Source: a virus
Lineage: Duplodnaviria; Caudoviricetes
Length of the DNA: 64,000 nt
IMG/VR virus record: IMGVR_UViG_3300035670_000009
Location: 32,001 to 96,000 of that record
Strand: one strand, 5' to 3'
Shown: piece by piece, positions 36,976-37,136 of the stretch
Position numbering within the stretch: the stretch's first letter is position 1
Layout of the letters: every line of letters begins with the position of its first letter
The notes under the pieces: model-generated
The model's database searches: none
What the model was told of the DNA's origin: nothing
Seen by the model: the letters and a program-made list of their open reading frames with translations, nothing else
Position numbers and translations under genes: made by a program

Positions 36976-37136
36976 GCGCACAACCCCGCCGGGAGTCGAA
37001 CCCAGTAACAGCGCGTCCAATTGCGCTCGGGGTGCGCGCGACAGGATCCGTCCTAGTCACGACTTTCGGCACACGTATGAGGAAACATACGCCACCGACC
37101 TCGTGGTTATGACCCACTCACGACTTGGGTGCCGAA
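36976..37136 (-). ncRNA. Structured non-coding RNA candidate ending in a tRNA-like domain without an anticodon arm
   Basis: Stems TTCGGCAC/GTGCCGAA, TCGTG/CACGA, GCGTATG/CATACGT, GTGAC-AGGA/TCCT-GTCGC; then ACCCCG/CGGGGT, D-like GCGC-AATTGGAC-GCGC and T arm CTGGG-TTCGACT-CCCGG. Confidence 0.6.

What the first reader, a model, noticed from the sequence alone, without database searches (positions are those of the whole stretch)
36976..37136. About 160-nt structured RNA ending in a tRNA mimic with no anticodon arm
Seen on the minus strand between the exonuclease and a glycosyltransferase: a three-way junction (8-bp closing stem plus two hairpins), a fourth hairpin, then an acceptor-like stem ACCCCG/CGGGGT extended by GCGCAC/GTGCGC, a D-like arm (GCGC-AATTGGAC-GCGC) and a canonical T arm (CTGGG-TTCGACT-CCCGG). 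Only TGTTA links the D and T arms; CTGTTA equals a tRNA-Asn anticodon loop left without a stem. G-U wobbles in three stems favour the minus strand. AAGTCGTGA occurs twice. Inference: a novel ncRNA, such as a tRNA-elbow mimic (decoy for anticodon nucleases, or a processing signal for RNase P/Z maturing the upstream domain) or a guide/scaffold for the RAMP or Nop-like protein.
Basis: partly seen in the sequence, partly recalled or inferred. Interest (0 to 1): 0.72.

Follow-up and report, generated by a model that had tools for sequence, protein, structure and literature searches.

The report
Phage pseudoknot RNA with armless tRNA
Between two genes of a 204-kb phage lies a conserved RNA of about 190 bases: a double-pseudoknot domain of a widespread, apparently undescribed phage RNA family, followed by a former glutamine tRNA that has lost its anticodon arm and probably survives only as a cutting signal for the host's tRNA-processing enzymes.

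Summary
On the minus strand, 36981-37167, lies a conserved structured RNA.

**3' module (36981-37034).** It is a tRNA-shaped three-way junction with a 7-bp acceptor stem, a D-like arm, a canonical T arm and no anticodon arm. Seven related phages keep it through compensatory changes.

**Origin.** In 11 other relatives of the same locus (DEDDh exonuclease, RNA, next gene), a normal tRNA sits at that position: Gln(UUG) in 10 and Thr(UGU) in one. The module is therefore a tRNA that lost arm 27-43. One relative keeps a 4-bp stub.

**5' part.** It is two consecutive pseudoknots plus hairpins, all covarying. Its core (hairpin, pseudoknot, hairpin) recurs in over 30 phages and prophages of several phyla, usually just after capsid, portal or terminase genes. 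It has no Rfam match.

**Most likely mechanism (inferred, not shown).** Host RNase P and RNase Z cut at the tRNA-like module. This separates the cistrons and leaves the pseudoknot domain as a defined, stable 3' end, as with MALAT1/mascRNA.

**Not conserved.** The GCGCAC/GTGCGC extension, the "Asn loop" and the repeated AAGTCGTGA.

The scan noted the same kind of element earlier on another genome (e1-5378184) and on this stretch (e1-5391200).

The parts
37152..37167 (-). Hairpin H-1 (AGGCC-UGCCGA-GGCCU), overlapping the last codons of the exonuclease gene. Its loop forms pseudoknot PKa with 37131-37135.
   Evidence: the loop and its 3' partner pair in 17 of 17 relatives with 10 different pair sets (GCCGA/UCGGC, GCUGG/CCAGC, GCCGG/CCGGC, GUUGG/CCAAC, GCCAG/CUGGC, GUCGG/CCGAY and others). 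Swapped partners pair in 27 of 90 cases.
37136..37149 (-). Hairpin P0 (GCCG-GUUGGA-CGGU), lying between the two strands of PKa.
   Evidence: Read. A hairpin of variable length occupies this place in all relatives. It was not scored formally.
37131..37135 (-). 3' strand of pseudoknot PKa (UCGGC).
37112..37130 (-). Hairpin P1 (ACCC / GGGU) with the 11-nt loop AAGUCGUGAGU. Loop bases UCGUG form pseudoknot PKb.
   Evidence: P1 is 100% paired in 18 sequences, and 2 of 4 pairs change on both sides.
37101..37105 (-). 3' strand of pseudoknot PKb (CACGA), preceded by the A-rich linker CAUAAC.
   Evidence: 98.9% paired, and 4 of 5 pairs change on both sides (UCGUG/CACGA, UCGGC/GCCGA, UCAUG/CGUGA, UCGGU/ACCGA, CCGCU/AGCGG). 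Own partners pair in 17 of 18, swapped partners in 7 of 42.
37066..37098 (-). Hairpin P2 (outer stem UCGGU/GCCGA, inner stem GCGUAUG/CAUACGU) with a pyrimidine-rich loop.
   Evidence: 98.1% paired, and 8 of 9 pairs change on both sides.
37056..37065 (-). Conserved single-stranded box 2 (AAGUCGUGAC; family consensus GAAGUCGU).
   Evidence: alignment. Pairing of this box with the leader was tested and rejected (67.6% paired).
37043..37054 (-). Hairpin P3 (AGGA-CGGA-UCCU) with an NGGA tetraloop.
   Evidence: GGA is invariant in the loop and the stem is 81% paired, with 3 pairs changing on both sides. The alignment is imperfect here.
37035..37042 (-). Leader GUCGCGCG, directly 5' of the tRNA-like module. 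The expected RNase P site lies between 37035 and 37034.
   Evidence: Conserved as GUSGCGCG in the armless clade. The cleavage site is an inference.
36981..37034 (-). tRNA-derived module without an anticodon arm: acceptor 37028-37034 / 36982-36988, D-like arm 37011-37026, linker 37006-37010, T arm 36989-37005, position 73 at 36981.
   Evidence: structure and covariation. Searches show true tRNAs at the homologous place in relatives (10 Gln, 1 Thr). One search gives the weak mascRNA-menRNA hit.
37150..37755 (-). Upstream gene: DEDDh (RNase T family) exonuclease. This gene is the synteny anchor.
   Evidence: PF00929, E 2.8e-11.
36146..36955 (-). Downstream gene (269 aa, weak GT2-like match). The true start is the ATG at 36955, not the GTG at 37117.
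   Evidence: gene calls in relatives; frame-breaking indels in the RNA region.

Best explanation
**What it is.** The stretch 36981-37167 (minus strand) is a co-transcribed, non-coding module inside a phage operon.
- Its 5' part (about 130 nt) folds into two consecutive H-type pseudoknots (PKa, PKb) with hairpins P0, P2 and P3.
- The core P1-PKb-P2 belongs to a family of intercistronic RNAs found in many phages and prophages.
- Its 3' part is a former tRNA that has lost the anticodon arm. Relatives have tRNA-Gln(UUG) there.
- It keeps the 12-bp acceptor/T-arm stack and the D-loop/T-loop elbow.

**Shown.** The structures, their conservation and covariation, the homology to a true tRNA locus, and the absence of decoding features.

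**Inferred mechanism.**
1. Host RNase P cuts at the 5' side of the tRNA-like module (about 37035/37034).
2. RNase Z or exonucleases trim its 3' side.
3. This separates the exonuclease and glycosyltransferase messages.
4. It also gives the pseudoknot domain a precise 3' end, either as a nuclease-resistant cap on the upstream mRNA or as a released stable small RNA.

Once the phage no longer needed the tRNA for decoding, the tRNA could decay only as far as this processing role allowed.
For: - **Purifying selection.** RNA identity within the armless clade is 74-85%. Four-fold degenerate sites of the adjacent gene are 38-65% identical.
- **Covariation.** It supports every helix of the module and of the 5' domain, including both pseudoknots.
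- **Homology to a tRNA locus.** Eleven relatives with exonucleases 35-59% identical carry a canonical tRNA at the same place, Gln(UUG) in 10 and Thr(UGU) in L110. In 10 of them it follows the same 5' domain; L113 has the tRNA without it.
- **Which arm was lost.** L108 keeps a 4-bp, 3-nt-loop stub where the anticodon arm was.
- **What is kept and what drifts.** The 7+5-bp stack, the UUCRAYU T loop and GG in the D-like loop are kept; these are features tRNA end-processing enzymes use. Pair 1:72 and base 73, the aminoacylation identity sites, vary freely.
- **Linkage.** The armless form is always linked to the 5' domain (7 of 7). The best tree needs two separate changes of state.
- **Transcription context.** No promoter-like or terminator-like site is nearby, and in relatives the next gene's ribosome-binding site follows directly. 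This points to a polycistronic setting.
- **Precedent.** RNase P/Z processing of tRNA-like structures defines the 3' ends of MALAT1 and MEN-beta. RNase P also cuts plant mitochondrial t-elements, bacterial polycistronic mRNAs and phage regulatory RNAs (PMC4919922, section 5.4).
Against: - There are no transcript data of any kind, so cleavage is inferred.
- The junction is G(-1)/C(+1) with an often unpaired 1:72. This is not the preferred RNase P context.
- RNase P and RNase Z accept a simple acceptor/T minihelix. Keeping the D-like arm hints at an additional or different reader of the elbow.
- Most members of the wider family have no tRNA-like element. Several are followed by an intrinsic terminator instead. 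The 5' domain therefore does not need this way of end formation, and its own function remains unknown.
- L113 keeps the tRNA without the 5' domain, and L112 and L114 lack both. The module is dispensable.
- Two independent arm losses are not established statistically (AU test p 0.079).
Confidence: 0.5

Rival explanations
1. The tRNA-like module acts in trans as a decoy or sponge for a host factor that reads the tRNA elbow or acceptor end. Candidates are toxins that modify the 3' CCA end, tRNA-modifying enzymes, or a defence sensor. The 5' domain would be a separate element that happens to lie upstream.
For: The D-like arm and the GG / T-loop elbow are conserved although RNase P/Z would not strictly need them. 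Armless tRNA-like elements without this 5' domain exist in other phage contigs, such as L042 and L030.
Against: There is no anticodon loop, so it cannot be a bait for anticodon nucleases. Pair 1:72 and base 73 are not conserved. In this lineage the module is never seen without the 5' domain. There is a single copy per genome.
Confidence: 0.15
2. The 5' domain is a cis-regulatory element, such as a riboswitch-like sensor, attenuator or translational operator for the downstream gene. The tRNA remnant has no role of its own.
For: In the wider family the core lies 20-150 nt upstream of the next gene. P2 carries a CUCC-type loop that could pair with Shine-Dalgarno sequences. In some members P2 or a following hairpin looks like an intrinsic terminator, as in L053, L063, L084 and L089.
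Against: The neighbouring genes are highly diverse (capsid, portal, terminase, tail chaperone, exonuclease), which argues against a metabolite-specific switch. In this lineage a complete tRNA or tRNA-like module separates the domain from the next gene. The remnant is under clear purifying selection.
Confidence: 0.15
3. The 5' domain is a self-cleaving ribozyme, or another catalytic or nuclease-blocking fold, that processes late or operon transcripts by itself. The tRNA is simply a co-transcribed gene that decayed.
For: The fold is compact, with two covarying pseudoknots and conserved unpaired nucleotides: GAAGUCGU, the A-rich linker and the NGGA loop. It has an intercistronic position in many phages. 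No known family matches it.
Against: No known ribozyme core is recognisable and there is no Rfam hit even at E 10. This idea does not explain why the remnant keeps exactly a processing-competent shape.
Confidence: 0.1
4. The module is still a decoding tRNA that lacks its D arm. In this reading the hairpin GCGC-AAUUGGAC-GCGC is the anticodon arm, with UUG in an enlarged loop.
For: MAFFT aligns the hairpin with the anticodon arm of the relatives' tRNA-Gln, because both contain UUGG. ARAGORN calls L107 tRNA-Pro(UGG) and L108 tRNA-Ala(UGC).
Against: The loop length varies (7, 8 or 9 nt), with only A at its start and GG conserved. That is how D loops behave. UUG is broken in L108 (UUCGG) and absent in L116. 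The stem has 4 bp. There is at most one nucleotide between the acceptor and the hairpin. The ARAGORN calls disagree with one another, and five of the seven get no call.
Confidence: 0.03
5. Neutral relic: a tRNA pseudogene on its way to deletion.
For: Some relatives have lost both the RNA and the tRNA (L112, L114).
Against: The module is far better conserved than neutral sites. It shows compensatory changes in all three stems. The same architecture appears in two branches of the exonuclease tree.
Confidence: 0.03

Closest known systems
MALAT1/mascRNA and MEN-beta/menRNA 3'-end processing (Rfam RF01684)
   Same: A tRNA-like structure with a reduced anticodon arm lies directly 3' of a structured RNA domain. 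RNase P cutting at its 5' side makes the mature 3' end of the upstream RNA, and RNase Z frees a small tRNA-like RNA (PMC4919922). It is the only Rfam family with any signal here.
   Different: Those are vertebrate nuclear lncRNAs, and their upstream protector is a triple helix rather than two pseudoknots. The score of 22.1 bits is far below the gathering score of 42.5, so there is no homology. Processing has not been shown here.
t-elements of plant mitochondria and tRNA punctuation of organellar polycistronic transcripts
   Same: tRNA-shaped structures, or true tRNAs, embedded between cistrons serve as RNase P/Z cutting marks (PMC4919922).
   Different: Those act in organelles, partly with protein-only RNase P, and have no conserved pseudoknot domain attached.
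tmRNA tRNA-like domain
   Same: It has an acceptor stem and a T arm without an anticodon arm, and it is accompanied by pseudoknots. This phage also encodes a real tmRNA elsewhere.
   Different: In tmRNA the two acceptor strands are the ends of the whole molecule and enclose the pseudoknots. Pair 3:70 is G:U for AlaRS, and there is no D stem. Here the module is contiguous, 3:70 is an invariant C:G and a 4-bp D-like stem is present.
Bacterial and phage Y RNAs of the YrlA class (Rfam RF02553; PMC4201824)
   Same: A non-coding RNA with a tRNA-mimicking domain, also reported in phages.
   Different: YrlA pairs its ends into a Ro60/Rsr-binding stem and is encoded next to rsr. This phage has no TROVE-domain gene and there is no Rfam hit.
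Upstream pseudoknot domain plus tRNA-like structure of tobamovirus and tymovirus 3' UTRs (own knowledge)
   Same: The order of elements matches: a run of pseudoknots followed by a tRNA-like structure at the end of a message.
   Different: Those are plant RNA viruses. Their tRNA-like structure has a pseudoknotted acceptor, ends in CCA and is aminoacylated. Here the acceptor identity positions drift.
Phage T4 stable RNAs 'species 1 and 2', co-transcribed with the tRNA cluster and matured by RNase P (own knowledge, not checked here)
   Same: Phage small RNAs of unknown function whose ends are made by the tRNA-processing machinery because they lie in a tRNA transcript.

Membership tests
Canonical tRNA (Rfam RF00005) | Four-arm cloverleaf with a 5-bp anticodon stem and a 7-nt loop carrying U33 and the anticodon. 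| tested here: not met
   No ARAGORN or RF00005 call. Only 5-6 nt lie between the D-like and T arms.
Canonical tRNA (Rfam RF00005) | 7-bp acceptor stem stacked on a 5-bp T stem, a 7-nt UUCRANY T loop, and a D loop with GG. | tested here: met
   all seven homologues have these features, with covariation.
Canonical tRNA (Rfam RF00005) | Descent from a tRNA gene. | tested here: met
   Orthologous loci carry tRNA-Gln(UUG) in 10 relatives and tRNA-Thr(UGU) in one. L108 keeps a stub of the arm.
mascRNA-menRNA (RF01684) | Score at or above the family's gathering score (42.5 bits). | tested here: not met
   22.1 bits, E 0.038.
mascRNA-menRNA (RF01684) | Cut by RNase P and RNase Z, which makes the 3' end of the upstream RNA. 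| not testable with these tools
   No RNA data are available. Testing this needs end mapping or an in-vitro assay.
tmRNA tRNA-like domain | G3:U70 identity pair, with the acceptor formed by the two ends of the molecule and enclosing the pseudoknots and a tag ORF. | tested here: not met
   Pair 3:70 is C:G in 7 of 7. The module is contiguous. ARAGORN finds the phage's real tmRNA elsewhere.
YrlA / Y RNA (RF02553) | Rfam match and a neighbouring or co-encoded Ro60/Rsr (TROVE) gene. | tested here: not met
   No Rfam hit. No TROVE match in the 204-kb genome, although the control genomes respond.
Unnamed phage/prophage 'P1-pseudoknot-P2' RNA family (defined here) | A 4-5-bp hairpin with an 11-nt loop whose central 5-6 nt pair with the strand after an A-rich linker, followed by a GC-rich hairpin with a pyrimidine-rich loop. 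| tested here: met
   Window. Family: and (P1 96.9% and P2 about 95% paired in 25 sequences, on an alignment fitted to the model). A model built only from the exonuclease-linked RNAs finds 24 of 31 true motif loci at E up to 0.1 and none of 13 chance pattern hits. Caveat: the prophage members were retrieved with a 19-nt pattern taken from the window.

The most novel reading that the evidence does not exclude
The double-pseudoknot domain is a new, widespread class of phage RNA with an activity of its own: a fold that blocks 3'-5' exonucleases, or a ribozyme. In this reading its 3' end in this phage lineage is set by an exapted, anticodon-less tRNA. That would be a prokaryotic-virus counterpart of the MALAT1/mascRNA arrangement. 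It would also be a natural experiment, possibly repeated twice, showing that a tRNA gene can be kept purely as an RNA-processing signal.
Probability: 0.25. Interest if true: 0.8.

Novelty: new variant of a known kind. Interest (0 to 1): 0.6.

Why it matters
**A function for phage tRNA genes beyond decoding.** Phage tRNA genes are usually explained by codon usage or by escape from tRNA-cutting defences. Here the same locus holds an intact tRNA in some relatives and an anticodon-less but well-conserved remnant in others. This points to an RNA-processing or structural role strong enough to keep the upper half of the molecule under selection.

**A new RNA family to study.** The attached 5' domain reveals a covarying pseudoknot RNA family that I could not find in Rfam 15 or in the literature searched. 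It sits between late genes of prophages in Pseudomonas-like bacteria, Burkholderiales, Alphaproteobacteria and other bacteria. In one GTDB genus it was found in 8 of 34 species genomes. Cultured hosts therefore exist in which its function can be tested.

Tried and rejected
No better than shuffled partners.
- **Acceptor extension GCGCAC/GTGCGC, the "Asn anticodon loop" and the repeated AAGTCGTGA as a switch.** None is conserved in relatives.
- **Pairing of box 2 with the leader.** 67.6% paired, and 13 of 18 unpaired at one position.
- **"Detached CAU anticodon-like hairpin" (note e1-5391200).** This is the P2 apex, whose loop sequence is not conserved.
- **Resemblance to 16S rRNA 1491-1505.**
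  - Box 2 plus P3 matches 15 of 15 nt in L106 and L108.
  - Only GAAGUCGU is common in the family.
  - The similar P1 loop covaries freely as a pseudoknot strand.
  - I therefore treat the resemblance as chance, in agreement with e1-5378184.
- **Resemblance of GAAAGUC to RNase P RNA CR-I.** No Rfam RNase P hit at E 10.
- **D-armless decoding tRNA reading.** Rejected; see the rival explanations.
- **YrlA, CCA-adding enzyme or RtcB partners in the phage.** None found.
- **Other copies in this genome.** One true copy only. The single weak hit, 14.4 bits, is taken as noise.
- **Similar leaders upstream of the phage's other tRNAs and its tmRNA.** None found.
- **Metagenome pattern scan for the sub-family.** It returned only a chance hit.
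- **BLAST of prophage-type motifs against 50,697 GenBank phages.** Nothing real.
- **Sequencing runs.** No RNA holder is listed. The DNA contigs laid are near-identical and gave no new variation.
- **Literature searches.** No description of this RNA was found. The 2026 preprints on bacterial tRNA mimics and on Minerva concern other families.
- **Monophyly of the seven armless loci.** Not rejected (p-AU 0.079), so "two independent losses" remains only the best-tree reading.

Full report
**Setting.** The window is bases 32001-96000 of a 203,910-bp virus record with direct terminal repeats. The finding lies on the minus strand between two genes. Upstream is a DEDDh exonuclease gene (37150-37755, PF00929, E 2.8e-11). 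Downstream is a 269-aa protein with a weak GT2-like match whose ATG is at 36955. ARAGORN finds only tRNA-Thr at 44233-44305 in the window. Rfam at gathering thresholds finds only that tRNA. A permissive Rfam scan of 36850-37250 gives one relevant weak hit: mascRNA-menRNA at 36982-37048, 22.1 bits, E 0.038, far under its gathering score of 42.5. The minus strand folds to -80.5 kcal/mol and the plus strand to -69.9. No promoter-like or terminator-like site lies nearby.

**The tRNA-like module is real.**
- At 36981-37034 the sequence reads acceptor CACCCCG, A, D-like arm GCGC-AAUUGGAC-GCGC, linker UGUUA, T arm CUGGG-UUCGACU-CCCGG, and acceptor strand CGGGGUU.
- I fetched homologous loci through the exonuclease. 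Six further loci have the same three-armed shape: L002, L106, L107, L108, L109 and L116.
- Each folds to it as its minimum-energy structure.
- On their alignment 95.5% of cells pair and six pairs change on both sides. No shuffle out of 500 reaches any of the five measures, and slid registers drop to 35-67%.
- Within the armless clade the RNA is 74-85% identical. Four-fold degenerate sites of the adjacent exonuclease gene are 38-65% identical.
- The region cannot be the N-terminus of the 36146 ORF. Module lengths are 53, 54, 55 and 62 nt and P2 lengths also differ out of frame. Gene calls in relatives start after the RNA.

**It is a tRNA that lost its anticodon arm.**
- Eleven other relatives carry a canonical tRNA at exactly this place. 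They are L096, L097, L099 (the same contig as L015), L100, L101, L102, L103, L104, L111, L113 and L115 with tRNA-Gln(UUG), and L110 with tRNA-Thr(UGU) on the same scaffold.
- L098 is cut off. L112 and L114 have neither the RNA nor a tRNA.
- MAFFT at first aligned the module's hairpin with the anticodon arm of tRNA-Gln, because both contain UUGG. I therefore considered loss of the D arm.
- The variation speaks against that. The stem is an invariant 4-bp GCGC. The loop is 7, 8 or 9 nt with only the first A and GG constant, as in D loops. UUG is interrupted in L108 and absent in L116.
- L108 keeps a 4-bp stem with a 3-nt loop between the D-like and T arms, which is a stub of the anticodon arm.
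- Pair 1:72 (C:G, G:U, U:A or unpaired) and base 73 (G, U or C) drift. No aminoacyl-tRNA synthetase identity is maintained.
- On the exonuclease tree six armless loci form one clade (support 91/93), sister to the tRNA-bearing L110, L111 and L113. L116 lies outside, so the best tree needs two changes.
- A single origin is not rejected (p-AU 0.079).

**The 5' part is a double pseudoknot, not a three-way junction.**
- The loop of P1 (37112-37130) pairs with the strand after an A-rich linker (37101-37105). Five different pair sets occur. Pairing is complete in 17 of 18 loci, against 7 of 42 when partners are swapped between variants.
- On alignment A4 this pseudoknot is 98.9% paired, with four of five pairs changed on both sides. 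P1 is 100% paired and P2 98.1%, with eight of nine pairs changed on both sides. P3 is 81% paired.
- A second pseudoknot joins the loop of hairpin H-1 (37152-37167, overlapping the last exonuclease codons) to the five bases just before P1 (37131-37135). It pairs in 17 of 17 loci with ten variants, against 27 of 90 swapped.
- Conserved unpaired elements are GAAGUCGU between P2 and P3, an NGGA tetraloop on P3, and a pyrimidine-rich P2 loop.

**The core of this domain is a wider phage RNA family.**
- A 19-nt pattern from P1 and the pseudoknot found 17 viral contigs and 34 bacterial contigs.
- About 32 of these, beyond the exonuclease-linked loci, have a paired P1 and a following GC-rich hairpin.
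- They come from Pseudomonas, Paraburkholderia, Caulobacteraceae, Rhizobiales, Thiohalobacter, Nitrosospira, Ignavibacteriales and others.
- The motif lies on the coding strand, 6-66 nt after the previous stop codon. In the loci checked by Pfam, that previous gene encodes an HK97-type major capsid, a portal or a large terminase. In a Pseudomonas group the motif sits before the tape-measure or head-tail genes, judged from the N-terminal sequences of the downstream ORFs rather than by Pfam.
- Several are followed by an intrinsic-terminator-like hairpin.
- A covariance model built only from the 18 exonuclease-linked RNAs finds 24 of 31 true motif loci at E up to 0.1. It finds none of the 13 chance pattern hits.
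- On the resulting alignment P1 and P2 are 95-97% paired, with changes on both sides in 12 of 13 pairs. The caveat is that the alignment was fitted to the model.
- A family model finds one copy in 8 of 34 species genomes of one GTDB genus.
- Rfam has no match, even at E 1, on seven such loci. BLAST against 50,697 GenBank phages finds nothing real. Three literature searches found no description.
- Because the members were fetched with a fixed pattern, the true variability of the pseudoknot in the prophage branch is unknown.

**How it most likely works.**
- Shown: the structures, the selection, the descent from tRNA, and the loss of decoding and charging features.
- Inferred: the module is kept because host RNase P, and RNase Z or 3' exonucleases, still recognise its acceptor/T stack and elbow.
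- Cutting would separate the two cistrons and define the 3' end of the pseudoknot domain.
- Three observations fit this. The armless form is seen only behind the 5' domain (7 of 7). The kept parts are those that processing enzymes read. The setting is polycistronic.
- It matches MALAT1/mascRNA, plant mitochondrial t-elements and the known RNase P cleavage of bacterial polycistronic mRNAs and phage regulatory RNAs (PMC4919922).
- Weak points:
  - There are no transcript data.
  - The G(-1)/C(+1) junction with a loose 1:72 pair is unusual.
  - The conserved D-like arm is not strictly needed by these enzymes.
  - Most family members work without any tRNA-like element.
- The function of the pseudoknot domain itself remains open: stabiliser, released small RNA, regulator or ribozyme.

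**Other readings.** A decoy for anticodon nucleases is excluded by the missing anticodon loop. A decoy for acceptor-end or elbow readers remains possible but is weakened by the drifting acceptor end. A partner for Ro60 is unlikely, since the phage has no TROVE gene, and it also has no CCA-adding enzyme and no RtcB. Nothing ties the RNA to the RAMP or Nop-like genes of the window. A neutral relic is contradicted by the conservation and compensatory changes.

**Relation to earlier notes of this scan.** Note e1-5378184, on another genome, described a pseudoknotted small RNA followed by a glutamine tRNA that lost an arm. It judged a 15-nt 16S match to be chance. My independent data agree on both points. 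Note e1-5391200 is the same stretch read in another window. Its "detached CAU anticodon-like hairpin" is the non-conserved apex of P2.

**Distribution of this phage.** Contigs from four other metagenome studies (marine, freshwater, aquatic) carry the stretch with a single difference at 37100. That difference turns GG into AG after the pseudoknot strand, as in most relatives.

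Noticed in passing
Own genome G000:C1 23131-23661 (outside the window), minus strand: The phage encodes a tmRNA (tag GAPLALAA) directly followed by tRNA-Thr(UGU) and tRNA-Lys(UUU). No SmpB search was made.
   Followed up: no
Own genome G000:C1 191221-191293, minus strand: The phage's tRNA-Asn(GUU) has the same acceptor stem (UGCCCGA/UCGGGCA) and D loop (AACGGUA) as the tRNA-Gln found at the exonuclease locus of relatives. One scaffold seems to have been re-used for different anticodons. 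L110 carries the scaffold with UGU (Thr).
   Followed up: partly
L042:694-752 (-), L030:2486-2544 (-), L043:12628-12686 (+): Other viral contigs carry tRNA-like elements without an anticodon arm, and without the pseudoknot domain. L042 has an acceptor, a D-like arm and a T arm. L043 has an acceptor/T minihelix. The L042 element starts right after a stop codon.
   Followed up: partly
L106:1880-1915, L108:1885-1921 (box 2 plus P3): These loci share 15 of 15 nt (GAAGUCGUAACAAGG) with the universally conserved 16S rRNA 1491-1505, followed by a short hairpin with GGA in its loop, reminiscent of helix 45. Only GAAGUCGU is common in the family, so I judge the match to be chance.
   Followed up: partly
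L011:302-316 and 5069-5083: A 6-kb viral contig has a CRISPR-like array (repeat GTTTCAATTCCACTCTGGTTCGATTCAAAC). One spacer matches a sequence about 4.7 kb away on the same contig.
   Followed up: no
L113:1001-1700; L112, L114: Among close relatives the locus is modular. L113 keeps tRNA-Gln directly after the exonuclease without the pseudoknot domain. L112 and L114 have lost both.
   Followed up: yes
window 37100: Near-identical copies of this phage region occur in contigs of four other studies (marine, freshwater, aquatic). The only difference in 361 bases is G to A on the RNA strand at 37100.
   Followed up: yes
window 36146-37117 (-) and 36936-37112 (+): The ORF list shows open frames across the RNA: 323 aa from a GTG on the minus strand and 58 aa on the plus strand. 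Both are artefacts of the GC-rich structured region and could mislead gene callers.
   Followed up: yes
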